From contig CAYVQZ010000003.1 of assembly GCA_964453435.1 (NCBI GenBank), positions 24,690 to 88,689 on the forward strand: 64,000 nt of DNA, read 5' to 3'. This DNA is from an uncultured bacterium (GTDB lineage: Bacteria > Abyssobacteria > SURF-5). The notes below the pieces were generated by a model, which did not search any database, was not told the origin of the DNA, and saw only the letters and a program-made list of their open reading frames with translations. Shown here piece by piece: positions 3,803-64,000 of this stretch (position 1 is its first letter; each line of letters starts with the position of its first letter). Made by a program: the position numbers and the translations under genes.

Positions 3803-6058
3803 TTAAAAATAGCCAACAGCCCGTAACTGTTTCCTTAACTCTTCGTCGAGTTCCGTATTCTGATGTTTCTGCTTTCTGTATCTCTTGCTTTCCGCAGCGA
3901 AATCATGAATAGTTGAAAGCATTTCCTCCGCTCTCTCCTCGCCAATGCGGTTGACAGTCTCTGTGGGATCAAGGTGCAAATTATATAACTCGTCTCGGCG
4001 CTCGTCCAGGTTTGTGTGAAGATATGGTTTGATTGAATCTGCATAATGGATATAAACGTAAGAGTTGCGGTACAACGCCACAATGCCCAGTTCCGGCTGT
4101 TCAGTGACAATATCCCGCATCGAACCCATCGCCTTCGCTTTGGTATCGAAGGCGGAAACACCCTGAAATGTTTCCGGGACTGGCAAGCCACAAATATCGA
4201 GGATTGTGGGTGCAATATCAAGAGAGCTTATCCTCTCTTCGGTATATGCGCTGGTTCTCTCCGAAGAACCCGCCGGCAGCTTGAATATGAGAGGGACTCG
4301 CACCTGTTCTTCATAAGGGATATTTCGGTGATACCATGCAGTGAAATCCGAATCATGCACTTCGCCGAACGATTCTCCATGATCGGATGTGAAAACTATC
4401 AATGTATCGCGATACAACCCTTTGGATTTAAGATGGACCAAGAATTCCTCCAATTCTTTGTCGGTCACACTGACGGCTCCGTTATAGAGATTTTTAATAA
4501 ACTTGGAATCTGCTTCGCTGATATCATATTCTCTCAAATTAAAGCCTAACTTCTGCAATACTTTGCCGAAATTTGACATCCTGAACATTCCCTTGTAATC
4601 ATTATCGGAATACAGTTTGTGGTGGTCCCTCACGGCAACGTAATCATGTACCTCATAAGTATGGAGAAAGAGAAAGTGGCGAGTTTCTTCGTGATCGTTT
4701 ATCCAATGCCTAGCCCGATCGAAAATCTCCTTTGCCTCATTGGCTTTTCCCCCGATGTGTCGCTCATAATACGAATCAAACCCTTTGGAAAAGCCAAATC
4801 GAGACGAAATCCAGAGGTCCCCGGTAAACGCTGCGGTTGCATAATCGAAGCTCTGAAATATCTCCGAAAGGGTTGTCAAAGGAAATTCTCGCACTTCCAA
4901 GTTTGCATCATTTATACCGTGATAAGAGGGGTATAAAGAGGTCATTATGGACATGTGAGATGGCAATGTCCAAGTAGCAGGCGCAACTACATTCTTGAAA
5001 AGTATTCCGTCTTTTGCGAGCGCATCGATTCCCGGGGTCGACCTGAAGTGACCATACGCTCCGACATGGTCCGCCCGCAGCGTATCGATGGATATAAGTA
5101 TCACATTCGGGAACGTGGCATCGTTCCGGGCTACCATACGGGGCTGTGTGAATGCAATAAGGTATCCCGGCTCGAGCCAAGGGGGTTCCAAGCATTGCTT
5201 AAGTTTCTGCATCAATTCCACCGGCCTGCACTCAACTTCCACCGTCATTTCCTCTTCGCTCTCCAGACCGAGACCAAAGCGTACTTCTTGCCATGTATCG
5301 ACCATCTGGACTGACGCAGACTTTTTCTCGATGACATTGCCCCCCTCGTCTCTCAGGGTAATACTAACACGAAAATGCTTCTCCCAATCATCCAGAAAAT
5401 CTACAGGACCGACCGCGAGACAAAGCTTTCCTCCCGGGAGCGGCTTAATCTTCTTCGGAAACTTGTATGGCAGGCTTGGATGCCACGGAACCGCCCGCCG
5501 CGTTACATGGTCAATCGTCAAGTTAGCCCATTGTCCGGATTGTTTGTAAGCACGACGATATGATAGTTGATGCACATATAAGAGAAGCACGACGCCGACC
5601 AGAATCAAAAAGAGTCGGCCGCCGGAAAATACATGTTTGCGTTGGCCTGCATCCCACAAGACCTTTGCCAGCGCCACTCCTTGAGCTGCGAGAAACAAGA
5701 GGGAAACGAGAAGCGCCATGTGGCGGAAGCTGCTCTGCCAATCAAAGAACAGAATCTGCCTCGCCAAGGGATACAAGAAAAAAACGACTAGGCTGGCAAA
5801 GGGGAGTGAAAAAGATTTCCGCACTCCCTCCCTCGATTTGGCAAGCAAGTGTGCGAGGACAAAAGATTGCACCTCCCATATTAGATGCGCCGCAAGCGCG
5901 AAAAGAGCCATAAGAATGAGAAGTCGAACGTTTATGAGAGAATCAAAGCCACGCTCGAATTTGCGAAACTGAACGAAAAATCCCACTCCGCACCCGCCGA
6001 GAGCGGTCAAGAGAAAATAATAGGATCCAACCCCCTTTCGCTCTTTCGCCAAACGCAT
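3803..6058 (-). CDS. Membrane-anchored sulfatase-fold (alkaline-phosphatase superfamily) protein, Thr-type, paralogue P1
   Basis: 751 aa. The N-terminal ~170 aa have about five hydrophobic segments. The C-terminal half has sulfatase-family blocks (ISIDTLRADHVGAYGH, VFTSDHGESFG), but the signature reads WTLPSHMSIMTSLYPSYHG instead of C/S-x-P-x-R. The protein ends in LRAVGYF. Confidence 0.85.
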   Translation of the reverse strand: MRLAKERKGVGSYYFLLTALGGCGVGFFVQFRKFERGFDSLINVRLLILMALFALAAHLIWEVQSFVLAHLLAKSREGVRKSFSLPFASLVVFFLYPLARQILFFDWQSSFRHMALLVSLLFLAAQGVALAKVLWDAGQRKHVFSGGRLFLILVGVVLLLYVHQLSYRRAYKQSGQWANLTIDHVTRRAVPWHPSLPYKFPKKIKPLPGGKLCLAVGPVDFLDDWEKHFRVSITLRDEGGNVIEKKSASVQMVDTWQEVRFGLGLESEEEMTVEVECRPVELMQKLKQCLEPPWLEPGYLIAFTQPRMVARNDATFPNVILISIDTLRADHVGAYGHFRSTPGIDALAKDGILFKNVVAPATWTLPSHMSIMTSLYPSYHGINDANLEVREFPLTTLSEIFQSFDYATAAFTGDLWISSRFGFSKGFDSYYERHIGGKANEAKEIFDRARHWINDHEETRHFLFLHTYEVHDYVAVRDHHKLYSDNDYKGMFRMSNFGKVLQKLGFNLREYDISEADSKFIKNLYNGAVSVTDKELEEFLVHLKSKGLYRDTLIVFTSDHGESFGEVHDSDFTAWYHRNIPYEEQVRVPLIFKLPAGSSERTSAYTEERISSLDIAPTILDICGLPVPETFQGVSAFDTKAKAMGSMRDIVTEQPELGIVALYRNSYVYIHYADSIKPYLHTNLDERRDELYNLHLDPTETVNRIGEERAEEMLSTIHDFAAESKRYRKQKHQNTELDEELRKQLRAVGYF

Positions 6059-7371: not shown

Positions 7372-7873
7372 GCCTCTATTTGCTTTTTCCTACTCGCCGA
7401 GGTTTTTTCATCTGCTTTTTTTCCAAAGCATATTCATCGCCATAACATGCCGGAAAATTTTATTAAACCAATTTGCGCTCACTTTAGCAGATAAATAAAG
7501 AAAAGTCAAAGATCTGTGATGGCAAAGCATGTTTCTTGAAATCAACATTTTTGACAGCCACTGCTTACCTCGGCCATCCTTGCCCGAACTCATGAATGAA
7601 TCGTGAAGATTCGGACTGTGGCAATATGGCGAACTCTTGCGCATCGAGAGCTTAACGGGTGGAATTGGGGGAAAAAATCATATAGAATAAAGCACACCAA
7701 TGGCCAGGTCCTGCGGCAGAAATCATTCATCCTCAATGCAAGTGTATTTATTAAAATGAATTCCGAGAAGGACCTCTCGCTGATTGTGGTAACGGTCACA
7801 TCCCGCAAGCGAAGCCGCAACTCTCGGACCGCGCCTTTTTTACAACGTCGTTAGACAAGAGGGGAAAAGTTCC

Positions 7874-9451: not shown

Positions 9452-11692
9452 ATGAGAGGAAAAACATTCCGTAGCTCATATTGTTACCTGGCGATTATAG
9501 TCGGCGGTTCAGGAGTCGGCTTCCTTGTCCAGTGCCGAAAATTCGAGGGCGGATTCGACTCCCTTCTGAATGTGCGGCTGTTCATCCTCATGGCTTTTTT
9601 TTCGTTGGCGACATACCTTGCATGGGAACTTGAATCTCTTGTTCTCGCACGCTTGTTTGCCCTATCGCGACAGGAGGTCAAAAAGTGGTTTTCCCTGAGC
9701 TTTCTGGCGCTTGCCATGTGCTTCCTGTACCCCTTGGCGCGACGCCTTGTATTTACAAATTGGCAGACCGGCTTCCGATACATGGCGCTTTCTGTTTTCC
9801 TGTTGTTTCTGGTGGCGCAGACGATTGCGTTCGCCCGCATTATGCGGATTGCGAGGAAACGGAGAGAGACATTTTACTGGGGACACCTCATCATGATTGT
9901 GCTCTGCATGGCAGGGCTTTATTCGATTCATCAGATGTCCTACTCTCGCGCCCACAGTGGAACATGGTCTGACGTGACGATTGACCATGTCACTCGGCGC
10001 GCCGTTATTTGGTGTGCGGGCAAGCCATACAGATTTTTCCACAATGTCAAACACCGCCCCGAAGCGGAGTTTTGTTTCGCTGTCGGTCCTGTGAAGATGT
10101 CCGGCGCACAGAACGAACAGTTTCGGCTTGAACTCACGTTGAGAAACAAAGACGGCGCTCGCATCGAGAAAAAATCTCTCACAATGCAAATGGGCGACCA
10201 GTGGGAGGAAGTGAGTTTTGAAATCGGGGTGAAGCAAGAGAACGAAATCTCGGCGGAAATTCGCTTCACCCCCGCGGGAGTCCTGCAGAAAATGCAACAA
10301 CTGGTGGCGGGGCTACCCTGGCGCGAGCCGGAAGGATTGATCGCATTCACTCAGCCTCGAATGGTGGCGCGACAGAGTAACGCTTTCCCGAATGTTGTTC
10401 TCATATCGATTGACACATTGCGCGCCGATCATGTCGGAGCATACGGGCATTTCAGGGCAACGCCGGGGATCGATATGCTCGCGAAGGACGGCATGGTTTT
10501 CACTAACGTAATTTCGGCGGCCACGTGGACGCTGCCTTCTCATATGTCAATGATGACTTCCTTATATCCCGCATATCATGGTTTGAACAAATATGAATCT
10601 CAGGTATCGAATCTGCCCTATGAGACTCTGGCTGGTGTATTCCAAGCTAATGGATACGCATGCGCGGCCTTCACCGGAGCAGCGCTTGTTTCTTCGAAAT
10701 ACGGGTTCTCGAAGGGTTTTGACTCATATTATGAGGAGAAGAAGCTCGGAAGGGAAGCGAACGAGGCGGAGGAAGTTTTCCGTCGGACGACGGAGTGGAT
10801 GGGAAAGCACGGACGGAGGCGGTTTTTTCTCTTTGTGCACACATTCGAGGCGCATGATTATCCGGCGGTAAAAGAAGCCCACAGTATATTCACAGACCCT
10901 GCCTACCAAGGTATCTTTCAGGAACCCTTCCTGTGGGTTCTCGAGAGGTTTCGCGTGTGGTGGAAGGGGAGTTACGATACGGTCTCGTACGGAATCACAG
11001 AAGAAGATGTCACACATGTAAAGGACCTATACGACGGTGGAATCAGAGTCACGGACAGAGAATTGCAGAAATTTCTGATTTTTCTCCGCACGCGGGACCT
11101 ATATGAGAATACACTTATTGTTCTTACCTCCGACCACGGCGAATCATTTGGAGACCCACACAACAACGCGAGCATTACGGCATGGAATCATATCAATATT
11201 CCGTACAGGGAACAAGTATGGGTGCCACTGGTGATGAAGCCACCCTCCACCCTGGGAATTTCCCAGGGAATGTCATTCGACGAGCGGATAAGCTCGCTTG
11301 ATATCGCGCCGAGTATATTAGAAATTTGCGGCCTATCAATTCCCGAACAGTTCATGGGTATTCCTGTTGTGGATGCGCTGCTCGAGGGGAACTATGATTC
11401 GAAACGGAGCCTTTTCGCGGAGGAACCACTGTGGGGCGCTGTCGCGCTGTATACCGACACCACGGCGTACATACATTATCCCGACCGCGATCGCGACGAC
11501 GAACTCTACGACATGCAGAATGACCCGAATCAAACACGAAACCTCATCGACACGGTCCAAGCGAAGCCGGAGCTGGAAATCCTCAAGCAACACCTCCGCG
11601 AGGGCACAGGTTACAGAGAAGAAATGCTGGAGACGGTTGAGGAGATGGACGCGGAGCTTGAGAAGAATTTGAGAGCCCTCGGTTACCTGTGA
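9452..11692 (+). CDS. Membrane-anchored sulfatase-fold protein, Thr-type, paralogue P2
   Basis: 746 aa, collinear with P1 and roughly 60% identical by eye. It has the same N-terminal motif GSGVGFLVQCRKFEGGFDSLLNVRL. The signature is WTLPSHMSMMTSLYPAYHG, with the Thr codon at 10529-10531. The protein ends in LRALGYL. Confidence 0.85.
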   Translation: MRGKTFRSSYCYLAIIVGGSGVGFLVQCRKFEGGFDSLLNVRLFILMAFFSLATYLAWELESLVLARLFALSRQEVKKWFSLSFLALAMCFLYPLARRLVFTNWQTGFRYMALSVFLLFLVAQTIAFARIMRIARKRRETFYWGHLIMIVLCMAGLYSIHQMSYSRAHSGTWSDVTIDHVTRRAVIWCAGKPYRFFHNVKHRPEAEFCFAVGPVKMSGAQNEQFRLELTLRNKDGARIEKKSLTMQMGDQWEEVSFEIGVKQENEISAEIRFTPAGVLQKMQQLVAGLPWREPEGLIAFTQPRMVARQSNAFPNVVLISIDTLRADHVGAYGHFRATPGIDMLAKDGMVFTNVISAATWTLPSHMSMMTSLYPAYHGLNKYESQVSNLPYETLAGVFQANGYACAAFTGAALVSSKYGFSKGFDSYYEEKKLGREANEAEEVFRRTTEWMGKHGRRRFFLFVHTFEAHDYPAVKEAHSIFTDPAYQGIFQEPFLWVLERFRVWWKGSYDTVSYGITEEDVTHVKDLYDGGIRVTDRELQKFLIFLRTRDLYENTLIVLTSDHGESFGDPHNNASITAWNHINIPYREQVWVPLVMKPPSTLGISQGMSFDERISSLDIAPSILEICGLSIPEQFMGIPVVDALLEGNYDSKRSLFAEEPLWGAVALYTDTTAYIHYPDRDRDDELYDMQNDPNQTRNLIDTVQAKPELEILKQHLREGTGYREEMLETVEEMDAELEKNLRALGYL

Positions 11693-11873: not shown

Positions 11874-14135
11874 TTGATGCGTCCCGACGGAGCGCCGATG
11901 GCGCGCGGAGCCGAGCATGCGAAGTGTTTAATCACCGCTCTGTTGGCCGGCGCGGCCCTTGGATTTGTTGTTCAGTACCGCAAATATGAGAAGGGGAACG
12001 ACACGCTGGTGAACTGGTCGCTGCCCATTCTCATTATTACGTTTGCGGTTTGCCTTGTGTGCGGGTGGATGCTGTGGACGCGCGTTCTGCAACATGTCTC
12101 TTCCAGATCGTCTCTAGAAGCGCACAAGGCCGCATCAAAACCGTTTCTTCCGGCAATCCTGCTCTTTCTGTACCCCCTTTTCGGATTCATGCCTGTGGAA
12201 ATACGATTTAAGGTTGCCGTTCTCGGCGCCGGAGCGGCAGGCATGTTGGTAGCGGCCGTGGACCTGATAAGGAACCGCAACGGATTAAGAGCAATCAGCG
12301 CTCGGCAGATGGTGGCGCTTTCACTGCTCTTTCCGGCATCCGCAGGCTCTGCCGTTGCCGGAAATATTGTGCACAATCTCCAGAAGAATCTGGCTTGCGC
12401 GCGGACAGAGGTTCGAGAATTGAATGCTCTATCCCGTGACCTCGAAGACCTGTCGATTGAACGCAATATTCGAAGCGTCTTCACGGTGAACAGGCAGACC
12501 GCTTTCAACCTTCAGGCCCAATTAAAACAGAAGCCGTTTCTCGTGTTCAGTTTGGCATCGAGGAATCCGGACCATGCACCGGATTACTATCGCGTGCGCA
12601 TCGATGTGGAAACGGAAACGGGTGAAGAAGAGTTTTTGATTGACGCGGTATCAGCGGATAAATGGGATGATTTCATCTATGACTTGGGCAATTTTGAAAA
12701 TCAGGCGGCGGGCTTTCGCTTTCGGGTGTTTATTAACCAATCGCTTCCACGACACGGCTTATTGACTCCTGCGTGGAATTGGCAAAAGGAAAAGTGCTTC
12801 AACCTGGCAATGACACCACCTCGAATCATTCATGGACTTGCTTCGGACAAAGATTTTAATGTCGTTCTAATCAGCTTGGACACCCTTCGGGCCGACCATC
12901 TCTCCGTTTACGGTTATTCGCGAGACACCAGCCCGAATCTGGCGCAATTAGCTGAAGAGGGAATTGTCTTCACCAATTTCTTCAGCCCCTCCACGTGGAC
13001 ATTGCCCGCGCATGTTTCGCTTTTTACTTCTCTTTATCCCTCTGCCCACCGTGTCCACAACCCCCAGAAGGAGGTCAAGAGTCTGAATTTCCAGACGCTG
13101 GCCCACCTTCTCCGCGGCGGTGGCTATTATACCGTCGCGTTCACCGATTCCGGATTCGTGGGTTCGGCATACAAATTTCACCACGGCTTCGACCAGTTCG
13201 ACGAAAGGGGATATGGCATCGAGGAAAATGTCGATAAGGCGTGTCATTGGGTAAGAAATAGCGGAGGGCTCAAGTTTTTCTTATTTTTGCATACATTCGA
13301 AATCCACGATTACTTCTTCCTGCGACCCGAGCACCGAAATCCATACGCGTCGCATTACGATGGCAGAATCAAAGACAGTTTCCGCGATTTCGCGACCCAG
13401 CCGAAAGTCAGAAAAGCATTCGAGCTGCGTCCTGAAGACATCCAATTTATGATTGACCTCTACGATGGAGCTATTCGATATACGGATGAGGCGCTCCGGA
13501 AGTTCTTTGAATGTCTAAAGCATACAACTGTGTATGATGACACGATGATACTTGTTCTCTCCGACCACGGAGAGTCATTCAACGAATTTCACAATAACGG
13601 CAGGTCCGTGGCGTGGCATCACGGCGGGCTTCCCTACGAGAGCATGATACACGTTCCCATGGTCATGAAACCACCGCTCCATTTGGGGGTCGAGCAAAAG
13701 GTTCTCGAGGGACCGTATTCGCTCATCGACATCATGCCGACTCTCGCAGAACTTCTGAACCTGCAGCCTGAAAACCAAGTGCAGGGGGTCTCCTTTGCGT
13801 CTGCTCTCTTTGGGAGAGAAAGCGGCGAAAGCCGTCCGGTTATCTCGCTGCCCGCCCAGGAACGGTTGAATGCCGTTTTGGGCGTGAGAACAAACGATCT
13901 TAAATATATCGCGCACGGCAGCGGGCGAAAAGAATTATATAACCTGAGGAACGACAAGCGGGAACAGGTCAACCTGGCGGATGATGAAAACTTCGAAAGT
14001 GAGCTGCAAACCTTTTCGGCGATTCTCGACTCTTACCTGGAAGACTGTGAAGGTTTTGACAGGCACGCGGAGTTTGGAGAAGAAATACCCGAAAATGTGA
14101 GGGCCGAACTGAAAGCTCTTGGATATCTTCAATAA
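11874..14135 (+). CDS. Membrane-anchored sulfatase-fold protein, Thr-type, paralogue P3
   Basis: The ORF opens TTG-ATG (ATG at 11877, preceded by GGGGGGA). It has about five N-terminal hydrophobic segments (AGAALGFVVQYRKYE motif). Other blocks are LISLDTLRADHLSVYGY, WTLPAHVSLFTSLYPSAHRV and VLSDHGESF. The protein ends in LKALGYLQ. Confidence 0.85.
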   Translation: MMRPDGAPMARGAEHAKCLITALLAGAALGFVVQYRKYEKGNDTLVNWSLPILIITFAVCLVCGWMLWTRVLQHVSSRSSLEAHKAASKPFLPAILLFLYPLFGFMPVEIRFKVAVLGAGAAGMLVAAVDLIRNRNGLRAISARQMVALSLLFPASAGSAVAGNIVHNLQKNLACARTEVRELNALSRDLEDLSIERNIRSVFTVNRQTAFNLQAQLKQKPFLVFSLASRNPDHAPDYYRVRIDVETETGEEEFLIDAVSADKWDDFIYDLGNFENQAAGFRFRVFINQSLPRHGLLTPAWNWQKEKCFNLAMTPPRIIHGLASDKDFNVVLISLDTLRADHLSVYGYSRDTSPNLAQLAEEGIVFTNFFSPSTWTLPAHVSLFTSLYPSAHRVHNPQKEVKSLNFQTLAHLLRGGGYYTVAFTDSGFVGSAYKFHHGFDQFDERGYGIEENVDKACHWVRNSGGLKFFLFLHTFEIHDYFFLRPEHRNPYASHYDGRIKDSFRDFATQPKVRKAFELRPEDIQFMIDLYDGAIRYTDEALRKFFECLKHTTVYDDTMILVLSDHGESFNEFHNNGRSVAWHHGGLPYESMIHVPMVMKPPLHLGVEQKVLEGPYSLIDIMPTLAELLNLQPENQVQGVSFASALFGRESGESRPVISLPAQERLNAVLGVRTNDLKYIAHGSGRKELYNLRNDKREQVNLADDENFESELQTFSAILDSYLEDCEGFDRHAEFGEEIPENVRAELKALGYLQ
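12909..12985. repeat. 77-nt block identical to 15387..15463 (inside P3)
   Basis: Hand alignment: tacggttattcgcgagacaccagcccgaatctggcgcaattagctgaagagggaattgtcttcaccaatttcttcag is identical in both paralogues. The flanking sequence diverges. Confidence 0.9.
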
Positions 14136-14369
14136 CATCTTGAGCTACGGCGAGGCGCTTTATTTACGGTATTAGGCGGTTGCTTTTTTTATGTCTCGGT
14201 CTGCCAGCGCTCGTGGCAGTGGCATATGACGCCAGGGCGGACTCGAAGAACCGGATGTCGACCAAGTTCTACGGAACAGAATTTCGCACAGACCGGACAG
14301 GCGGGTATAAAGGTGGGGGAAAACTTGATTCACAGAGGTAGTTCGTCGGTGGCGCGCAGAGTGGAGCGC

Positions 14370-16625
14370 ATGAAATATTCCTCAGCTGTTTTGCTGGCCG
14401 GCGCGGCCCTCGGATTTGTTGTTCAGTACCGCAAATACGAACAGGGAATTGATGGGTTGTTCGATTGGTCTTTCCTTCCGCTTCTGCTGGCCTCAATCGC
14501 CGCCACGGCTTTTGCCTGGGGCTTTTGGTATACGGTCCTGGTGTATGCTTTCAAGAGAAGCGCTGATGAGGCGAAAGAATCGGCAACCATGGTATTTGTC
14601 CCGCTGTACCTGCTGTTCCTTTATCCCCTGTGCACACCCCTGAAAATGAAAGGGATATATTACATTGCGGGAACGATTGTTTTTGCCATCAGCGCTCTTG
14701 TCGCCGTAGCAGACCTGGCTCAAAGACGGGCAGGCGTCTCAAAGAAAATCTCTTTTCATCATTTATCGCTGATACTCCTCCTTTTCCTCGGGACCGCAGG
14801 CGCCATTCTTCTGGGAAATGCGTTCCATAATTTGGTTCGCCAGTTGGAACACGCGCGTTCGGAAAAGACCGAAACGCGGACCACGCTCACAGGCGTCAAG
14901 CTCGATTCTCAAGTAAGACCCGCTCTGAATGTCGGCAACGGAATCACATTCAAAACGGTTGAAGAACTCCAAGAGAACCCGTTTCTTGTTTTTAGTGTCG
15001 GCTCTGAACAGCAAAGCGCCTATCAAAGCCTGTCCATTACCATATCCGCAGAATCAGCCACTCATCAGACTTCCTATCGAATTCCAATGGACAGCGCATT
15101 TGAAGGGATTGGAGAAGTATGGAAAGACTTCATCTGGGACCTGAATGAATTCAAAAATCAGGAAGCCCGCCTTTCTCTTGGCCTTGGCATAAACAGGTTG
15201 AAGAGACTTTTTCAAATATTTGCACGAAAAAGAACGTTTTTCATCCCCGCCTGGAATTACATCCCTGATCGGTATTTGCTTTCCCTCTACGTGGCGCCTC
15301 CCCGGGTAATTCACAGTCCTGAAAAAGAAGAATTCAATATTTTGCTGATATCCTTGGACACCCTGCGGGCAGACCACCTTTCCGTATACGGTTATTCGCG
15401 AGACACCAGCCCGAATCTGGCGCAATTAGCTGAAGAGGGAATTGTCTTCACCAATTTCTTCAGTCCCTCCACCTGGACATTGCCCGCGCATATGTCGCTG
15501 TTCAGCTCTCTCTATCCGTCCGCGCATCGAGTGCATAACAAAGAACAATCAATTCGAGAACTGGACTTTCCGACTCTCCCGCAACTGTTAAAGACAGTGG
15601 GCTATTATAATGTGGCTTTGACTGACGGGGGTTTTGTTGGCTCGACATACGGATTCCACCTCGGTTTTGACTCGTATTACCAAAAAGGCGAGGATTTTGG
15701 CGTTCGAATCGGAAAGGCGATAGAATGCCTTAAGGAATACAGGGCCCTCAAATTCTTTCTCTTTCTTCACACATATGAGATACACAGTTATGTCACCATG
15801 AAGAACGTGCACCAATCCTATTATGCCAATGCGTACAATGGCGAAATTCGAGGTCACTTTCAAGACCTCGTGCGGCAGTTGGCTTTGGAGCAAGGCAGGT
15901 TATCCTCTAAAGACACGCAGTTTATCAAGGACATTTATGACGGGGCAATCCGTTACACCGACGAATGCCTGGGAGAACTGTTTCGCGCTTTGAAGGACAT
16001 CGGGCTTTATGACAACACGCTGATCATTGTCACCTCGGACCACGGTGAAGCATTTGGTCAAGAGCATGGGAATAGAGAATTCATTGAATGGGGGCATGGC
16101 AGGATACCGTATGAAACCCAAATTCATGTGCCTCTTATCGTGAAGATGCCGAAATCGTGGGGGGAGTATGAAGGACACATTTCCTCTGAACAGTCTCTGC
16201 TCGATATTGTGCCCACACTGGCGGATATTCTCGACATAAAGATATCGCACAAAGTTCAAGGGAGGTCGTGGCTGCCGCTCCTGAAAGAAGACGGTTTGCT
16301 GGACAGGCGAGCGTTGTTTGCCCTGCAAGCTCCTCACCACAGCCTGAATACTGCGATATCGGTACGACACGAGGGGCGCAAATATATTGTCTCAGATTAT
16401 GGTTCCGCCAGGCAGCGAGAGGAGCTGTATGACCTGGTGAACGACCCGACAGAGTTAAATAATATAGTTGACGTTCCGGATGTGGCTGAGGAGCGCCGCC
16501 GGCTGTCAGAGGCGGTCGACTCCTACCTTAAAGATTGTGCAGAATTCGGCAATCGGGTGAAGGTCGGAAACGAAATATCGGAAGAGGTAAAGGCGGAACT
16601 GAAGGCTCTTGGTTACCTGCAATAG
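14370..16625 (+). CDS. Membrane-anchored sulfatase-fold protein, Thr-type, paralogue P4
   Basis: The track ORF starts at 14226. The ATG at 14370 (MKYSSAVLLAGAALGFVVQYRKYE) aligns with the P3 N-terminus, and the upstream 48 codons are Arg/Ser/Thr-rich with no paralogue match. Motifs are WTLPAHMSLFSSLYPSAHRV and VTSDHGEAFG. The protein ends in LKALGYLQ. Confidence 0.8.
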   Translation: MKYSSAVLLAGAALGFVVQYRKYEQGIDGLFDWSFLPLLLASIAATAFAWGFWYTVLVYAFKRSADEAKESATMVFVPLYLLFLYPLCTPLKMKGIYYIAGTIVFAISALVAVADLAQRRAGVSKKISFHHLSLILLLFLGTAGAILLGNAFHNLVRQLEHARSEKTETRTTLTGVKLDSQVRPALNVGNGITFKTVEELQENPFLVFSVGSEQQSAYQSLSITISAESATHQTSYRIPMDSAFEGIGEVWKDFIWDLNEFKNQEARLSLGLGINRLKRLFQIFARKRTFFIPAWNYIPDRYLLSLYVAPPRVIHSPEKEEFNILLISLDTLRADHLSVYGYSRDTSPNLAQLAEEGIVFTNFFSPSTWTLPAHMSLFSSLYPSAHRVHNKEQSIRELDFPTLPQLLKTVGYYNVALTDGGFVGSTYGFHLGFDSYYQKGEDFGVRIGKAIECLKEYRALKFFLFLHTYEIHSYVTMKNVHQSYYANAYNGEIRGHFQDLVRQLALEQGRLSSKDTQFIKDIYDGAIRYTDECLGELFRALKDIGLYDNTLIIVTSDHGEAFGQEHGNREFIEWGHGRIPYETQIHVPLIVKMPKSWGEYEGHISSEQSLLDIVPTLADILDIKISHKVQGRSWLPLLKEDGLLDRRALFALQAPHHSLNTAISVRHEGRKYIVSDYGSARQREELYDLVNDPTELNNIVDVPDVAEERRRLSEAVDSYLKDCAEFGNRVKVGNEISEEVKAELKALGYLQ
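15387..15463. repeat. 77-nt block identical to 12909..12985 (inside P4)
   Basis: Same alignment as above. Confidence 0.9.
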
Positions 16626-18128: not shown

Positions 18129-19148
18129 CTATCCGAGAGTTCGTCCCATTGCTGCAACGAGCGGTTTGATCTCGGTCATCAAGGTGAAGTATCGTTTGGG
18201 CAACAGGGATTGAAAGCCGTCGGAAAACGCTTGCTCCGGGTGCGGATGCACCTCGATCATCAGCCCGTCCGCTCCTGCGGCAATCGAGGCTTTTGCCATG
18301 GGCAAAACCAAGTCCCACCGCCCGGTTCCATGGCTTGGGTCCACGATAAGCGGCAAATGACTCATCGCCTTGATCACAGGGACCGAATTCAAATCAAGGG
18401 TGCTGCGAGTGGCGGTCTCGAAGGTGCGTATGCCTCGCTCGCACAGGATAAGGCGATAGTTTCCCTCTGACAATATGTATTCGGCGGACATCAGGAATTC
18501 TTGAACGGTAGACATCATGCCCCTCTTTAAGAGGATGGGTTTTTCCACTTTCCCGAGACTCTTGAGCAGGGCAAAATTCTGCATGTTTCTTGCGCCCACC
18601 TGCAAGATGTCTGCGTATTCCGCCACAAGCTCCACATTGTGGCCGTCCATCACCTCCGTTATCACCTTCAGGCCGGTCCTCTCCCTCGCTTCCGCCAACA
18701 GCTTCAAGCCCTCCTTCTCCAGACCCTGGAAGCTGTAGGGCGACGTTCTTGGTTTGAAGGCGCCGCCCCGGAGAATCTTCGCGCCGCCCTGTTTCACGAT
18801 CTCCGCTATGTCCAATATCTGGTCCCGCGATTCCACGCTGCATGGCCCGGCAATTATCTGGACCTCGCGCCCACCGAGAACGACGCCGTCGATGTTTATT
18901 TCCGTGTTTTCCTGCTTCAGTTCTCGGCTGACAAGCTTGAACGGCTTCAAGATAGGGACAACATCCTCCACGCCCGGCAACGTACGGAGCGATTCGAGGC
19001 GGGCTTTGCCCCGCTCGTCTCCCACCGCTCCGACGACGGTGCGTTCGATTCCTCGTATGAGATGGGCTTTGTACCCGAGGTTCTCAATCACTTCCACCAC
19101 GTGGCCCAGATTCTCCTCGTTTGCGTCACGCTTCATCACGATAATCAT
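18129..19148 (-). CDS. aroF: 3-deoxy-7-phosphoheptulonate (DAHP) synthase, type I-beta, with N-terminal ferredoxin-like regulatory domain
   Basis: The catalytic core has [45 protein letters not shown] and DPSH. The first ~70 aa ([31 protein letters not shown]) resemble the regulatory domain of Thermotoga-type DAHPS. Confidence 0.9.
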
Positions 19149-19226
19149 TGAGTACTATGCCTTTTTCTTTTTATCTAAAATTGAGTTTTTGCCTGAATTA
19201 TCGCGCCCTAGTATATCGAGCGGCAT

Positions 19227-19245
19227 GTTTTCTTGTCAAGAAAAC
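19227..19245. promoter_or_regulatory. Perfect 19-bp palindrome, candidate operator upstream of DAHP synthase
   Basis: GTTTTCTTG-T-CAAGAAAAC has 9-bp arms around one central base. It lies ~80 nt upstream of the aroF start at 19148 (minus strand). Confidence 0.35.
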
Positions 19246-19349
19246 ACGGTCGCAGAAAACATTATGCCCGAACATATGCGTGTCGCGGCCGCGCGTTGCG
19301 GCGCCCTGCTTGCGCGTAACTGTCCCACGATTGCCCGGCGAAGGGGACT

Positions 19350-19447
19350 GTGAATCTGTCCCACGGTTGTATATTTTGCCGAACAACGAGCTTTGGGGGC
19401 TGTCCCCGACGCGGAACACCTTCAGCATGAATCGTGGGACAGTCTCC
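19350..19447 (+). repeat. Conserved intergenic element, copy A
   Basis: It aligns by hand with 63641..63739. Shared blocks: GTGAATCTGTCC; CGAA(C)AACGAGC; GGGG-GCTGT-CCCC versus GGGT-GCTGT-ACCC; CCTTCAGC; GGGAC(A/T)GTC. Confidence 0.6.
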
Positions 19448-19567
19448 ATGGCTCCCTGCGCAGGAGTTTTCGGCTTCGCGGAAAAGGCGTCGTTGACCGA
19501 ATCGAGCGACGGTATTAAGCGCTTCTGCGCCGTTGCCAGTCATCCCTGAAATTTTTTAGAGATTTCT

Positions 19568-20254
19568 TCATCTCTTGTACGCGAGAATGAACAACTGTTT
19601 TCCCAAGATTCGGTGGGCGCAAGGAATCTTCAGATATGCTTTCACGAAGACTCTTCCTTTTGGATATTTGCTGCGGAATGTGTACGGCAGGAAACGTCCT
19701 TTCAGGATACCGATTTCGAAGCCGGAAGTTATGATAGCCTCGCGCATGCTCTCCTCGCTGAGAGCGATTTGATGGTCGAAGTAGTCCCAGTATTGCATGT
19801 ACAGATATTTGACATTCGGCTGTATGACGATAAGTTTTCCATTTGGGACAAGTATCCTCCTGATTTCCGCCAGGGTATCAATTATGGATTGGCGGCTGGG
19901 CAGGTGTTCGAAGAAATTCGACGCAAAAACGACGTCGATGGTTGAGTCCTCGATATCTATCGTGTTTTCATCTCGCGGGTGCATCACGGTTACGCCTTGC
20001 GCGGCGTACTTCTCCGTATCCGGATTGATGTCAACGGCATACTTTTGTCCGCAGTTGATGTTGTTAATGAACTCGCAGGTGCCTGCGCCCAGGTCGACCA
20101 CCGAATCGGAAGCCCCGATGAATTTTTGGAGAAAATCGCTGCAGATAACCTGCCAGACCTGGTTTTTCTGCTTCAGGGCGCGGGCATCGAATCGCTCGCG
20201 GTAAATTGCCACGAGGTTGGTCAGATTCGATGGGCGATTTTTGGTCTCTCCCAT
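19568..20254 (-). CDS. Class I SAM-dependent methyltransferase
   Basis: Motif I is SVVDLGAGTCEF. Acidic post-I residue is in YAVDINPD. Length is 228 aa. It is the last gene of a 4-gene minus-strand operon. Confidence 0.8.
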   Translation of the reverse strand: MGETKNRPSNLTNLVAIYRERFDARALKQKNQVWQVICSDFLQKFIGASDSVVDLGAGTCEFINNINCGQKYAVDINPDTEKYAAQGVTVMHPRDENTIDIEDSTIDVVFASNFFEHLPSRQSIIDTLAEIRRILVPNGKLIVIQPNVKYLYMQYWDYFDHQIALSEESMREAIITSGFEIGILKGRFLPYTFRSKYPKGRVFVKAYLKIPCAHRILGKQLFILAYKR

Positions 20255-25274: not shown

Positions 25275-25339
25275 GAATTAACCGTTTTTTTCCTCCTTGA
25301 GAATGCACTGACAATTGAAGTTCACGGAGAGAGGCTACA

Positions 25340-26833
25340 TTGAAAAAAATAATTTTTGTCGAACCGAAGGCGCCCGGTTTTCACATATTCAGCAAGTGGA
25401 GTCTGCCCCGGCTTGGAACGGTGATGCTGGCAACAATACTCCGGGACCTCGGGCACGACGTCAAGGTCTATATCGAGGAAATTCAGAAAGCGGACAAGGA
25501 AGAACTGCGCGGCGCCGACCTTGTTGGCATCTCGACTATCACGTCGACCGCTCCCCGGGCGTATGCGCTGGGAGACGAACTGCGCGCCAGCGGCGTTCCC
25601 GTGGCAATGGGAGGGGCGCATCCCACATTTCTTTCCGATGAAGCAATGGAGCATGCCGACTTCGTCGTTCGCGGTGAAGGCGAGGAAGCCATTGTCGAAC
25701 TCCTCGAAGCTCTTGACGGGAAACGGGGCCTGCATACGATTGCGGGGCTCACCTATCGGGACAACGGCGCCGTAATCCATAATCCGGCGCGGCGGTTGTG
25801 TCCCGACCTCAACTCGCATCCGTCGCCCGACCTTTCGCTGATCGCGGGGTTCGGCTCGGGCACACGCAGTTTTTTCAGACACAACCCCATCATTCCGGTG
25901 TTGACATCGAGGGGCTGCCCATTCAACTGCAAGTTCTGTTCGGTGACTACGATGTTCGGCCGCAAGTACCGTTTCCGTTCTCCCGAGAAGGTGCTCGAGG
26001 ATATTCGTCCCTACGCGGGCAGGACAATCTTCTTCTATGACGACAATTTTGCCGCGAATAAACAACGGACAAAGGCGTTGTTGCGGCTGATGATCGAGGA
26101 GGGCGTCACACCGCAATGGACGGCCCAAGTGCGCGTGGAGGTGGCGAAGGACGAAGAATTGCTCGACCTGATGGAGCGCTCGAATTGTTTCGCGGTGTAT
26201 GTGGGAATCGAATCCATCAATCCTCAGACGCTTGAATTGTACTCGAAGGGACAGACGCTCGAAGATATCACGGAGAGCATACGGAAATTTCACGAACACG
26301 GAATCCGTATACATGGGATGTTTGTTTTGGGGTCCGACGAAGACGACGTGCGCATCATCCGGGAAACGGCGAAGTTCGCAAAACGGGTGAAGATCGACTC
26401 GGTCCAGTTCATGATTCTTACGCCGATTCCGGGGTCCGAGATTTTCGCGGAATTCTGCAAGGAAAAGAAGATATTCACCTATGACTGGACGTTCTATGAT
26501 GGGCACCACGTCGTGTTCAAACCGAAGAAAATGGTTCCCATCGTGCTTCAGAAAGAAGCGGTGCGCGCCATGAAGAAATTCTTCTCGCGGGCGCAGATGC
26601 TCAAGGGGCTGTTCCGAGGCGACTTGCACGGAGCAATGTTGAGAGGATACGGGAATCGAATCATCAAGAAGTGGGAGCGATTCAACAAGGATTTCTACTA
26701 CAACCTGAAGCATGAATTATATGGTGAATTGAACTCGCAGCTCAGCAAGATCACCGGGAAGTTCCGGCAACCGGATTTCATACGATTGAACACTCAGGAC
26801 GAGGACCAGCAGGCTATTTCCGACAAGGTTTGA
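25340..26833 (+). CDS. B12-binding-domain radical SAM protein (class B-like), function unknown
   Basis: The N-terminal Rossmann-like B12-binding domain has IIFVEPKAPG...LVGISTITSTAPRAY. The radical SAM cluster motif is TSRGCPFNCKFCSV. Length is 497 aa. Confidence 0.85.
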   Translation: MKKIIFVEPKAPGFHIFSKWSLPRLGTVMLATILRDLGHDVKVYIEEIQKADKEELRGADLVGISTITSTAPRAYALGDELRASGVPVAMGGAHPTFLSDEAMEHADFVVRGEGEEAIVELLEALDGKRGLHTIAGLTYRDNGAVIHNPARRLCPDLNSHPSPDLSLIAGFGSGTRSFFRHNPIIPVLTSRGCPFNCKFCSVTTMFGRKYRFRSPEKVLEDIRPYAGRTIFFYDDNFAANKQRTKALLRLMIEEGVTPQWTAQVRVEVAKDEELLDLMERSNCFAVYVGIESINPQTLELYSKGQTLEDITESIRKFHEHGIRIHGMFVLGSDEDDVRIIRETAKFAKRVKIDSVQFMILTPIPGSEIFAEFCKEKKIFTYDWTFYDGHHVVFKPKKMVPIVLQKEAVRAMKKFFSRAQMLKGLFRGDLHGAMLRGYGNRIIKKWERFNKDFYYNLKHELYGELNSQLSKITGKFRQPDFIRLNTQDEDQQAISDKV

Positions 26834-50280: not shown

Positions 50281-50967
50281 ATGACAGAAAACGGGCTAAT
50301 CAAGGAACTCCACGCAAACGTGGTCCTCGGCCGGATAGACCGGAATGAAGATTTGTATGAGGAATTAGCCGGACGCCCCGGCGTAACCGAGTTGACCGCC
50401 CAGTGTGTGGAAAAAGGCGTGCCCACGAAACGGATTCTGGACGAGGGCCTGATCAGCGCGATGGATGAAGTCGGCGCGAAGTATGAATCGGGAGAATATT
50501 ACCTGCCGGACTTGATCGCATCGGCCGACGCCATGATAGCCGGCATGGAGATTCTCAAGCCTCTGTTACTGGAGGCTCAAATCCAATCGCGCGGCAAAGT
50601 CATCCTGGCCACCGTGGAAGGCGATGAACATGATATTGGGAAAAATCTTGTGGGCATTATGCTTCGAGCCGCCGGTTTCGAAGTAATCGATTTGGGAACG
50701 CGAGTTCCGGCGGGAGACATTGTGGAAGCGGTGGAAGAACATAAACCGAACGTGCTCGGATTGAGCGCGCTTTTGACATCCACCATGCCGCGCATGAAAG
50801 AGGTCATCGAAGCGTTGGAACGAAACAATCTCCGGAACGGCATGCGGGTGATGGTGGGCGGAGCTCCCGTTTCAAAGGAGTACGCGGATTCCATCGGAGC
50901 AGATGCATATGGAGAGGATGCGTTTGAGGCAGTAGAGCGGGCCAATGAATTGGTGGTTGTATCATGA
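50281..50967 (+). CDS. Corrinoid (B12)-binding protein, methyltransferase-cognate type
   Basis: An N-terminal helical cap is followed by a Rossmann B12 domain with the DxHxxG motif (GDEHDIGKNLV), SxL (LGLSALLTS) and GG (MVGGAPV). Confidence 0.9.
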   Translation: MTENGLIKELHANVVLGRIDRNEDLYEELAGRPGVTELTAQCVEKGVPTKRILDEGLISAMDEVGAKYESGEYYLPDLIASADAMIAGMEILKPLLLEAQIQSRGKVILATVEGDEHDIGKNLVGIMLRAAGFEVIDLGTRVPAGDIVEAVEEHKPNVLGLSALLTSTMPRMKEVIEALERNNLRNGMRVMVGGAPVSKEYADSIGADAYGEDAFEAVERANELVVVS

Positions 50968-51599: not shown

Positions 51600-51687
51600 T
51601 TCCTATCATTCAATCCGCGTTTTCACGCTCACAGAAAACCTCGCGCAGGACGTAAGAAAAGTTGAAAGAAATGAGAGGACAGGAACT

Positions 51688-53994: not shown

Positions 53995-54002
53995 GGAGAA
54001 CC

Positions 54003-56803: not shown

Positions 56804-56818
56804 CCCCTTTTTCCATTC

Positions 56819-63638: not shown

Positions 63639-63640
63639 CC

Positions 63641-63782
63641 GTGAATCTGTCCGACAATTATGAATGTCAGCGAAAACGAGCGCAGGGTGCTGTACCCAAT
63701 TTCGGAATCGCCCCGTCCTTCAGCGTAGGGGACTGTCCCGGATTTACGGGCACGAAGGCGCCGTAGAATCGGGACTGTCCCC
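63641..63782 (+). repeat. Conserved intergenic element, copy B, plus an extra GAATCG-GGGACTGTCCCC box
   Basis: It starts 2 nt after the MscS stop. It aligns with 19350..19447. It contains the perfect palindrome GGGAC-T-GTCCC twice (63729-63739 and 63771-63781). Confidence 0.6.
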
Positions 63783-64000
63783 GGAGCGACCCGCTTTCCT
63801 TCGCTGAGCGGAGCGACGTCCCGCGCATTCGCGGGATAGATCGGCGGACTGCCCCCGAAGCGCAGGACATGGAATTATCGGACGGACTCACCGTGCGGGT
63901 TTTCCGATTCCATTCACGGCCTTCGGCAAAGGCGTCCTTTTCCCCGGATGAGAGCGATACAGAAGAGCGCGGCGCAGATTCATCTGGCCGTTCTCTTTTT

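What the first reader, a model, noticed from the sequence alone, without database searches (positions are those of the whole stretch)
19350..19447. Conserved ~100-nt intergenic element in two same-orientation copies 44 kb apart, with a covarying hairpin and GGGAC-N-GTCCC palindromes
Seen in sequence: 19350-19447 and 63641-63739 align by hand at roughly two-thirds identity with ordered shared blocks. The blocks are GTGAATCTGTCC (12/12), CGAA(C)AACGAGC, a small hairpin, CCTTCAGC, and GGGAC(A/T)GTC. The hairpin is GGGG-gctgt-CCCC in copy A (19396-19407) and GGGT-gctgt-ACCC in copy B (63685-63697), so one base pair changes on both sides. Copy B also carries the perfect palindrome GGGACTGTCCC twice (63729 and 63771). 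The second occurrence is preceded by GAATCG, as in copy A (GAATCGTGGGACAGTCTCC at 19429). A degenerate version (ATGAATCGTG...CGGACTGTGG) occurs at 7592-7618 in another large intergenic region. Both full copies lie in non-coding stretches of over 350 nt with no convincing ORF. Inference: this is a dispersed structured element. It could be a REP-like repeat, a small RNA, or a clustered binding site for a dimeric regulator. With only two or three copies in view the statistics are weak, and a 12-mer match alone among ~3 kb of intergenic DNA could be chance.
Basis: seen in the sequence. Interest (0 to 1): 0.5.

Follow-up and report, generated by a model that had tools for sequence, protein, structure and literature searches.

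The report
REP-like palindromic repeat clusters
The two look-alike intergenic stretches are clusters of small mobile palindromic DNA repeats built on the core GGGGAC(A/T)GTCCCC, of the kind usually moved by REP-associated tyrosine transposases; this is a known sort of genomic parasite, not a new regulatory RNA.

Summary
The best local alignment of the two intergenic regions is exactly 19350-19444 against 63641-63737 (0 of 2000 shuffles reach its score; Gumbel p about 8e-5, about 0.03 after correcting for all intergenic pairs).

Both loci are nests of REP-like repeats. A model built only from phage-contig units hits 63724-63786 at E = 4e-17 and 19391-19451 at E about 0.003. The unit is palindrome, then a variable covarying hairpin, then palindrome.

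Evidence that the units move:
- One phage contig has a 60-nt unit that its relative lacks.
- A sister strain has a different palindrome in place of element A.
- Contigs of the Logan assemblies (31-mer graphs) stop 30 nt inside each element.

Evidence for a transposase partner:
- RAYT-like Y1 transposase genes lie next to arrays of the same core (L052, L298, L301).
- The core fits the published TIRYT repeat consensus GGGGWSAS.

Verdict: a new member of a known kind, of modest interest. The cognate transposase and the copy number in this genome could not be checked.

The parts
19350..19447 (+). It is homologous to 63641-63739.
   Evidence: The optimal local alignment spans 19350-19444 against 63641-63737, and 0 of 2000 shuffles reach its score. 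It is the top pair among all intergenic regions.
19318..19446 (+). The multi-copy segment of element A, as inferred from where Logan (31-mer) contigs end.
   Evidence: Contig L001 ends at 19347 coming from the left. Contig L032 ends at 19417 coming from the right. Each ending implies about 30 nt of overlap into a repeat. Homology with the sister strain resumes at 19447.
19320..19332 (+). Left arm of the outer inverted repeat of A: CTGTCCCACGATT.
   Evidence: It is a 13/13 reverse complement of 19430-19442. The two arms pair in the minimum-free-energy fold.
19430..19442 (+). Right arm of the outer inverted repeat of A: AATCGTGGGACAG.
19391..19451 (+). A decayed palindrome-spacer-palindrome unit: GGGGGCTGTCCC, 29 nt, GGGACAGTCTCC.
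   Evidence: Covariance model R1 scores it 21.2 bits, E about 0.003. Only the two palindromes match.
19344..19361 (+). Two overlapping core-like half sites: GGGACTGTGAATCTGTCC.
   Evidence: Read directly from the sequence. R1 gives a weak hit at 19339-19367, E 0.85, which is not significant.
63641..63892 (+). Element B as a whole. It is a composite of about 250 nt closed by 19-nt imperfect inverted repeats, with CCG on both flanks (63639-63641 and 63891-63893).
   Evidence: Arms 63641-63659 and 63874-63892 match at 16 of 19 positions. The fold has z = -5.95. Logan contigs from two samples end at 63670, which is 30 nt inside the element.
63641..63739 (+). It is the left part of element B and ends in the first palindrome of the canonical unit.
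63685..63697 (+). A decayed core palindrome, GGGTGCTGTACCC.
   Evidence: Read directly from the sequence. It aligns with GGGGGCTGTCCCC of A.
63724..63786 (+). The canonical unit: GGGGACTGTCCC, then ggatttacgg[gcacgaaggcg]ccgtagaatc, then GGGACTGTCCCC.
   Evidence: Model R1, built without this sequence, scores it 74.4 bits, E = 3.7e-17. The other strand scores only 31 bits. blastn and nhmmer find matches of about 85-90% identity (blastn) across the unit in L046, L042, L037, L062 and L075.
63919..63943 (+). A terminator-like hairpin with a T-run just beyond element B. It is probably the original terminator of the MscS gene, and the element sits between it and the stop codon.
   Evidence: The link to MscS is an inference.
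19210..19239 (-). A sigma-70-like promoter (TTGACA, 18 nt, TATACT) for the DAHP synthase gene. It lies about 80 nt from the nearest edge of element A and is not part of the repeat.
   Evidence: The sequence is conserved in the sister strain.

Best explanation
Both loci are clusters of REP-like (REPIN- or BIME-like) palindromic repeats. The building block is the palindrome GGGGAC(A/T)GTCCCC.

In its canonical form, two copies of the palindrome flank a short hairpin of variable sequence. On one strand the whole unit of about 57 nt folds into a long imperfect hairpin with three conserved irregularities: a central T/T mismatch, a T.G pair and a bulged A. Element B holds one intact unit. It also holds older, decayed material that it shares with element A. 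Each element is closed by its own inverted repeat made from half-cores.

Shown here: the units are multi-copy and are gained or lost between close relatives.

Inferred: they are moved in trans by a RAYT-like (TIRYT-type) Y1 HUH tyrosine transposase encoded elsewhere in the genome. Such an enzyme would recognise the hairpin on single-stranded DNA, as in REP/RAYT and IS200/IS605 systems.

Any effect on the neighbouring genes would be incidental. Possible effects are stabilising the mscS mRNA 3' end or spacing the aroF promoter region.
For: 1. Family membership. Model R1 was built from 20 units found in phage contigs, with the window left out. It hits 63724-63786 at 74.4 bits (E = 4e-17) and 19391-19451 at E about 0.003.

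2. Structure. 98.8% of cells pair in the long hairpin. Four pairs show compensatory changes, for example AU 10 / UA 9 at one pair and GC 10 / AU 8 / CG 2 at another. No shuffle out of 500 reaches the observed covariation score. The U.G pair is invariant, and the opposite strand scores 43 bits less.

3. Abundance. GC content of these loci runs from 27% to 75%, and several contigs carry multiple units.

4. Mobility.
- L042 carries a 60-nt unit that is precisely absent from its relative L037.
- In a sister strain whose proteins are at least 90% identical and whose flanks are about 97% identical, window 19283-19446 is replaced by a different palindrome containing GGGGGACAC. Homology resumes at 19447.
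[quoted passage not shown] Each end is 30 nt inside a repeat, and the implied edges are 19318, 19446 and 63641.

5. Transposase link.
- L052:111-707 is a Y1_Tnp protein (Pfam E = 3e-13), matches the REP-associated tyrosine transposase model better than the IS200 model, and has cores on both sides.
- The Y1 gene of L298 has three GGGGACTGTCCCC cores 35-120 nt upstream.
- A Peptoniphilus homologue, picked by protein similarity alone, has four GGACAGTCC sites 8-137 nt downstream, where 0.01 are expected.
- Four further Y1 loci show GGGAC-type motifs at the gene ends.
- The published TIRYT inverted-repeat consensus GGGG[AT][CG]A[CG] fits GGGGACAG (PMC3733652, PMC6006769).
Against: - No Y1 transposase lies in the window, and the rest of this genome could not be read. 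The cognate enzyme and the copy number here are therefore inferred.
- The left 60 nt shared by A and B (GTGAATCTGTCC...AACGAGC) has no match outside this genome.
- A GTAG tag precedes only a minority of units.
- Element B has TG...CA ends and a CCG/CCG flank. The L042 insertion has TTGATA/TTGATG flanks. Both look like target-site duplications, which Y1 transposases do not make.
- One locus, L188, has a DDE transposase between inverted two-core units.
- The Logan contig ends could in principle reflect a drop in coverage at strong hairpins.
Confidence: 0.65

Rival explanations
1. A and B are miniature inverted-repeat transposable elements (MITEs) derived from a DDE-transposase insertion sequence. 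The palindromic cores would be transposase binding sites inside the terminal inverted repeats.
For: - Both elements have terminal inverted repeats: 13/13 in A and 16/19 in B.
- B begins with TG, ends with CA, and is flanked by CCG on both sides.
- The L042 insertion is flanked by TTGATA and TTGATG.
- In L188 a DDE_Tnp_1 gene sits between inverted units of about 70 nt that each carry two cores. The same units occur without the gene in L187 and L276.
Against: - A 3-bp flank match has a chance of 1 in 64, and I chose the boundaries after seeing the sequence.
- A has no such duplication.
- No DDE gene with these particular ends was found.
- The canonical unit keeps strand-specific irregularities (U.G pair, bulge). 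These are expected for recognition of a single-stranded hairpin, not for binding of double-stranded terminal repeats.
- Some insertion sequences are known to target REP sequences (my own knowledge), which could explain L188.
Confidence: 0.15
2. The element is a transcribed structured RNA, either a small RNA or a cis-regulatory leader or 3' UTR element.
For: - The canonical unit shows compensatory pairs and an invariant U.G pair on one strand.
- In several phage contigs the unit sits between a stop codon and the next ribosome-binding site, on the coding strand (L033).
- Unit B lies on the mscS strand, 90 nt after the stop codon.
Against: - There is no Rfam match, even at E <= 1.
- Element A is absent from a sister strain and points against both flanking genes.
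- Units also sit in frame inside protein-coding genes in either orientation.
- No promoter or terminator is attached to the units.
Confidence: 0.06
3. The palindromes are a cluster of operator sites for a dimeric DNA-binding protein, either a regulator or a nucleoid-associated protein, acting on aroF or mscS.
For: - The core is an 11-13-bp perfect palindrome.
- Sites are spaced about 40 nt apart in both regions.
- The core is conserved across a very wide range of GC content, which implies recognition by a protein.
Against: - The sites are not conserved upstream of the same gene in the sister strain.
- The same core occurs between and inside unrelated genes in phages and many other lineages.
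- The central base and the irregularities are asymmetric and strand-specific.
- The protein found next to the cores is a Y1 transposase, not a regulator.
Confidence: 0.07
4. The A/B similarity is a chance resemblance between two GC-rich intergenic regions.
For: Only two copies are in view, and the corrected p-value for the pairwise alignment alone is only about 0.03.
Against: - An independent model hits both loci.
- Contig ends coincide with the start of the alignment, at 63641, and with the resumption of sister-strain homology, at 19446/19447.
- Both elements have significant inverted repeats built from the same motif.
Confidence: 0.02

Closest known systems
REP / REPIN / BIME sequences with RAYT (REP-associated tyrosine transposase), as in E. 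coli and Pseudomonas
   Same: - Short imperfect palindromes, mostly between genes, often as inverted doublets that fold into one long hairpin.
- Clustered in hot spots, with rapid turnover between strains.
- A Y1 HUH transposase gene flanked by the same repeats (L052, L298, L301).
   Different: - The core sequence is different.
- The canonical GTAG tag is not consistently at the 5' end.
- The doublet is two copies of a self-palindromic 11-mer around a separate variable hairpin.
- The family spans GC 27-75% and is common in Mu-like phages.
- The Y1 proteins score below NCBIfam's RAYT cut-off.
TIR repeats / 'TIRtrons' with TIRYT transposases (Di Nocera et al. 2013, PMC3733652; subclass 2.1 of Quentin et al. 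2018, PMC6006769)
   Same: - The published inverted-repeat consensus GGGG[AT][CG]A[CG] fits GGGGACAG and GGGGACAC.
- TIR repeats are described as organised in dimers or clusters.
- Two of the Y1 loci fetched here (L309, L310) are about 250 aa long, and their C-terminal ends looked helix-turn-helix-like to me by eye; this was not scanned against a domain library.
   Different: - Those papers describe the motif beside the transposase genes. They do not describe the full 13-nt palindrome, the palindrome-hairpin-palindrome unit, its presence in phages, or its in-frame copies.
Rickettsia palindromic elements (RPE) and the intragenic REPs of Opitutus terrae
   Same: Palindromic repeats without stop codons are tolerated in frame inside protein-coding genes, in variable linkers. 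Here they encode GDSPxST...GTVP peptides in the MuA-like transposase, the portal protein and the terminase.
   Different: The sequence family is different. Here the hosts are transposable phages. The O. terrae and R. baltica REP-encoded peptides listed in PMC3733652 differ from these.
Bacterial MITEs (Correia, ERIC/IRU, RUP)
   Same: Elements of about 100-250 nt closed by inverted repeats, sitting between genes, and able to fold as RNA.
   Different: MITEs are moved by DDE transposases and carry regular target-site duplications. That evidence is weak here.
IS200/IS605 ends and their non-autonomous derivatives (PATEs)
   Same: Strand-specific imperfect hairpins with bulges or mismatches, recognised on single-stranded DNA by a Y1 enzyme.
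   Different: Those elements have distinct left and right end hairpins and insert next to a fixed tetra- or pentanucleotide. No such target could be established from the single empty site available.

Membership tests
REP/REPIN-RAYT (including TIR repeats-TIRYT) | A short imperfect palindrome that folds into a stem-loop | tested here: met
   In the unit alignment 98.8% of cells pair and four pairs covary. The folds of A and B have z-scores from -2.4 to -5.95.
REP/REPIN-RAYT (including TIR repeats-TIRYT) | Many dispersed copies per genome, mostly extragenic | tested here: inconclusive
   There are two loci in 64 kb. Logan contig ends imply further copies. In other contigs the count reaches 15 cores in 11.7 kb.
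REP/REPIN-RAYT (including TIR repeats-TIRYT) | Inverted doublets or clusters (REPIN or BIME organisation) | tested here: met
   The canonical doublet is at 63724-63786. Both loci hold 4-5 core-like sites about 40 nt apart.
REP/REPIN-RAYT (including TIR repeats-TIRYT) | A conserved GTAG (or CGTC) tag at one end | tested here: inconclusive
   GTAG directly precedes the B unit (63725-63728) and a handful of the other units seen. GTAGA is invariant inside the right arm of all 20 type-1 units. The usual left flank is only NAG.
REP/REPIN-RAYT (including TIR repeats-TIRYT) | A cognate Y1 (RAYT/TIRYT) gene flanked by the same repeats | tested here: met
   This is met for the repeat family, in L052, L298 and L301, with related motifs in L309-L312. 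It could not be tested for this genome: no Y1 gene lies in the window.
REP/REPIN-RAYT (including TIR repeats-TIRYT) | The TIRYT inverted-repeat motif GGGG[AT][CG]A[CG] | tested here: met
   GGGGACAG is present on the complementary strand of both cores in B. The sister-strain palindrome carries GGGGACAC.
MITE (derived from a DDE transposase) | Terminal inverted repeats | tested here: met
   13/13 in A and 16/19 in B.
MITE (derived from a DDE transposase) | A target-site duplication of fixed length | tested here: inconclusive
   B has CCG/CCG. A has none. L042 has TTGATA/TTGATG, which is imperfect.
MITE (derived from a DDE transposase) | A parent insertion sequence with the same ends | tested here: inconclusive
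   L188 has a DDE_Tnp_1 gene between units that carry cores, but these are of another sub-type. None was found for the GTGAATCTGTCC ends.
Described structured RNA (Rfam) | A match to a curated covariance model | tested here: not met
   There were no hits at gathering score over the whole window, and none of relevance at E <= 1 over either region.
Cis-regulatory element of aroF or mscS | Conservation at the orthologous position in close relatives | tested here: not met
   In the sister strain the promoter-proximal and distal flanks are conserved, but element A is replaced.
Intrinsic terminator | A GC-rich hairpin followed by a T-run | tested here: not met
   No terminator-like site lies at any unit. 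The only one, at 63919-63943, lies beyond element B.

The most novel reading that the evidence does not exclude
The GGGGAC(W)GTCCCC palindrome-hairpin-palindrome unit is one pan-phylum REPIN-like superfamily. It travels between hosts on transposable (Mu-like) phages and is routinely tolerated, or even used, as an in-frame linker peptide (GDSPxST...GTVP) inside essential phage proteins. Its strand-specific, covarying hairpin could also have a function at the RNA level, for example between cistrons.
Probability: 0.2. Interest if true: 0.6.

Novelty: new member of a known kind. Interest (0 to 1): 0.35.

Why it matters
- For this window, the result removes a candidate regulatory RNA or operator. 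It explains two long intergenic regions as insertion hot spots for selfish palindromic repeats.
- Annotators should expect spurious small ORFs here (peptides such as GTVP, GDSP, GQSP) and assembly breaks at these sites.
- At family level, the invariant 13-nt core gives a simple handle for finding REP-like repeats and their RAYT/TIRYT partners. It holds across GC 27-75% and occurs in Mu-like phages.
- The in-frame copies in phage transposase, portal and terminase genes show that such repeats can reshape protein linkers.

Tried and rejected
- I scanned genome contigs with GTGAATCTGTCC-N16-28-AACGAGC. It returned 28 single hits in unrelated taxa, which is within chance expectation, and none resembled the element.
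- I searched the protein database with a concatenated six-frame translation of A and B, hoping to catch spurious ORFs over other copies. Nothing scored E <= 1.
- I scanned the metagenomes with the 23-mer at the left end of B: 0 hits. I scanned viral contigs with CTGTCCCACG-N60-90-CGTGGGACAG: 0 hits.
- The repeat finder did not report the A/B pair, because the copies differ by indels.
- A literature search for the exact palindromes returned only primers and eukaryotic sites.
A profile built from 87 real homologues was needed.
- My naive longest-ORF gene calls could not give reliable statistics on unit orientation, because the units contain no stop codons and so extend ORFs. I make no quantitative claim about orientation.
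- The listing of cluster members returned no organism names.
- I considered ribosome hopping between the two direct repeats, as in T4 gene 60. I set it aside because the intragenic copies keep the reading frame throughout.
- I considered CRISPR, integron attC, dif/Xer and parS sites and rejected them on sequence and spacing, from my own knowledge.

Full report
**Setting**

The window is ordinary chromosomal DNA of about 53% GC. It carries glycosyltransferases, four sulfatase-domain paralogues, CTP synthase, a corrinoid/MttB/betaine-transporter cluster and two asparagine synthases. It has no transposase.

Copy A lies in the 419-nt gap between the stop codon of a methyltransferase gene (19568-20254, minus strand) and the start of a DAHP synthase gene (18129-19148, minus strand). 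That gene has a near-consensus promoter at 19239-19210. Copy B starts 3 nt after the stop codon of an MscS gene (plus strand, ending at 63638).

The closest MscS homologue among 5.8 billion proteins is only 63% identical, so the lineage is poorly sampled. The few named homologues, all at 50-55% identity, are a mixed set that includes Planctomycetota (Sedimentisphaerales, Phycisphaerales).

Yes. All the listed blocks are present.

- With strict scoring, the A/B pair is the best of all pairwise local alignments among the window's 18 intergenic regions, in both orientations (34 against 27 for the next pair). No mononucleotide shuffle out of 500 reaches that score.
No dinucleotide shuffle out of 2000 reaches its score, and a Gumbel fit gives p about 8e-5, or about 0.03 after correction.
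- The third, 'degenerate' copy at 7592-7618 is not supported.

**What the blocks are**

Each region carries four or five such core-like sites roughly 40 nt apart.

Each region is also closed by an inverted repeat made of half-cores.
- In A, CTGTCCCACGATT (19320-19332) pairs with AATCGTGGGACAG (19430-19442), a 13/13 match.
- In B, GTGAATCTGTCCGACAATT (63641-63659) pairs with AATTATCGGACGGACTCAC (63874-63892), a 16/19 match.

These arms pair in the predicted folds. The fold of the whole of B has z = -5.95.

**The wider family**

A scan of viral contigs for two cores 20-50 nt apart returned 66 loci, where less than one is expected. Many of these loci carry several units.

The recurring unit has three parts:
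- [G]GGGACTGTCCC;
- an arm such as (A/G)GA(T/A)TTACGG, a variable apical stem-loop, and the opposite arm CCGTAGA(A/T)TC;
- GGGACTGTCCC[C].

Window 63724-63786 is a textbook example.

In an alignment of 20 such units from phage contigs, 98.8% of cells pair in one long hairpin. Four pairs show compensatory changes. A U.G pair, a bulged A and a central T/T mismatch are invariant.

A covariance model built from these 20 units, with the window excluded, gave the following:
- 63724-63786, plus strand: 74.4 bits, E = 4e-17;
- 63724-63786, minus strand: 31 bits;
- 19391-19451: 21.2 bits, E about 0.003, with only the two palindromes matching.

So B holds an intact unit and A a decayed one. The 60 nt on the left that A and B share (GTGAATCTGTCC...AACGAGC) has no counterpart outside this genome.

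**Evidence that the elements move**

1. The phage contig L042 carries a 60-nt unit exactly where its relative L037 has none. Further along, L037 has an intact unit where L042 keeps only a decayed remnant.

2. A sister strain from another sample has proteins at least 90% identical. It shares the aroF promoter side up to window 19282 and the methyltransferase side from 19447, at about 97% identity. Between those points it carries a different 37-nt perfect palindrome, TATTGGGGGACACCATG-CCG-CATGGTGTCCCCCAATA, plus 28 nt, in place of window 19283-19446.

3. Logan contigs are built so that every 31-mer is unique within a sample (10.1101/2024.07.30.605881). They therefore stop about 30 nt inside any repeat.
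- They stop at 19347 from the left and at 19417 from the right, which implies a repeat spanning 19318-19446.
- In two samples they stop at 63670, which implies a repeat starting at 63641.
- 63641 is the first base of the A/B alignment. 19446 is the last base before sister-strain homology resumes.
- The caveat is that a coverage drop at strong hairpins could also end a contig.

A terminator-like hairpin sits just beyond B. This suggests that B was inserted between the mscS stop codon and its terminator. That is an inference.

**Who moves them**

Two papers describe RAYT-like 'TIRYT' tyrosine transposases whose flanking inverted repeats share the motif GGGG[AT][CG]A[CG]. This fits GGGGACAG and GGGGACAC (PMC3733652 and PMC6006769).

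In the loci fetched here:
- L052:111-707 encodes a Y1_Tnp protein with an H-I-H motif (DNHIHILL) and a YIHLNP motif. It scores higher against NCBIfam's REP-associated tyrosine transposase model than against the IS200 model, though below the curated cut-off. It has cores on both sides.
- A profile built from 87 homologues found a second Y1 gene in L298. It has three GGGGACTGTCCCC cores 35-120 nt upstream and one core inside the gene.
- A Peptoniphilus homologue, selected by protein similarity only, has four GGACAGTCC sites within 137 nt of its stop codon, where 0.01 are expected.
- Four more Y1 loci from viral contigs show GGGAC-type motifs at the gene ends. One of these, GTGGGACAC, resembles A's GTGGGACAG.
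- More distant Y1 homologues carry other repeats (L303) or no obvious flanking repeat (L302).

The strand-specific irregularities of the hairpin are what single-strand-recognising Y1 enzymes use in IS200/IS605 and REP systems. That point rests on established knowledge; it was not tested here.

**What remains open**

- B's TG...CA ends with CCG/CCG flanks, the TTGATA/TTGATG flanks in L042, and a DDE_Tnp_1 gene between core-bearing inverted units in L188 keep a DDE-type MITE reading alive, at about 0.15.
- An RNA function is unlikely for these two loci. Rfam gives no hit, A is not conserved, and A is oriented against its neighbours. It cannot be excluded for the family as a whole.

**Side finding**

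The sampled viral loci are Mu-like transposable phages: L033 has MuB-like, portal, Mu F-like and terminase genes, and MuA-like transposase, portal or terminase genes occur in L040, L046, L049, L074, L075 and L086.

There the units sit between a stop codon and the next ribosome-binding site. They also sit in frame inside the MuA-like transposase, portal and large terminase genes. They fall in variable linkers and encode peptides such as GDSPDSTTPDSVRKSGTVP. This parallels the Rickettsia palindromic elements and the intragenic REPs of Opitutus (PMC3733652).

**Verdict**

It is a new member of a known kind, of modest interest in itself. The family-level observations deserve a separate look.

Noticed in passing
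L075:4911-7022, L046:724-2289, L046:2393-3781, L040:6419-8830, L049:4338-6395, L086:7299-9500: Palindrome-hairpin-palindrome units sit in frame inside the MuA-like transposase, portal and large terminase genes of Mu-like phages. They fall in variable linkers and encode GDSPxST...GTVP peptides. In L086 the unit bridges a portal/Mu-F-like fusion at the position where L033 has the unit between two separate genes.
   Followed up: partly
L188:8715-10361; also L187:3550-3689 and L276:71-430: A DDE_Tnp_1 transposase gene lies between two inverted units of about 70 nt, each with two GGGGAC(W)GTCCCC cores. The same unit occurs in tandem or alone, without the gene, in other contigs. Either this is an insertion sequence whose ends carry the cores, or an insertion sequence that landed inside a repeat.
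   Followed up: partly
L298:415-1044: A RAYT-like Y1 transposase gene has a core palindrome inside its own coding sequence (…PDGDSPQPRP…), and the Pfam match covers only the N-terminal half. It may be a repeat-invaded or decaying transposase.
   Followed up: no
L099:5414-5581 and L100:1-160 (sister strain, sample SRR7615342): The orthologous aroF upstream gap holds a perfect 17-bp-arm palindrome, TATTGGGGGACACCATG-CCG-CATGGTGTCCCCCAATA. The two Logan contigs break at its centre. The same intergenic site is therefore occupied by different palindromic elements in two strains.
   Followed up: yes
window 3803-6058 (-), 9452-11692, 11874-14135, 14226-16625 (+): Four paralogous genes of about 750-800 aa. 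The two that were scanned (3803-6058 and 9452-11692) each have a sulfatase domain preceded by about 310 unassigned N-terminal residues; the other two are called paralogues from DNA repeat similarity only. Three are in tandem. DNA identity between copies is 68-85% over the repeated stretches (repeat families D1, D2, D5 and I1).
   Followed up: no
window 50281-59523: A cluster of a B12-binding corrinoid protein, two MttB-family methyltransferases, a pterin-binding protein, a methyltransferase and an OpuA-type ABC transporter. It looks like a glycine-betaine or methylamine demethylation module. Two tandem asparagine synthase paralogues follow (59555-61051 and 61205-62686).
   Followed up: no
window 25322-26713 (-) and 25340-26833 (+): Two long ORFs (463 and 497 aa) overlap almost completely on opposite strands. 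The minus-strand product has no Pfam hit. Which strand codes was not resolved.
   Followed up: no
window 7372-7873: A 500-nt AT-rich intergenic region between divergent sugar-epimerase and glycosyltransferase genes. An 83-aa ORF lies at 7603-7854.
   Followed up: partly
L081:5812-5955, L201:614-666, L233:2722-2801, L206:3085-3200, L205:5762-5826: Some contigs carry tandem arrays of the core with short regular periods (21-42 nt) instead of the doublet form. It is unclear whether these are coding repeats, amplified units or something else.
   Followed up: no
L052 (whole locus, 33% GC) and L236, L250, L270 (27-30% GC): The GC-rich 11-13-nt core is kept intact in very AT-rich contigs; L052 has 15 copies in 11.7 kb. 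This argues for strong sequence-specific recognition rather than drift.
   Followed up: partly
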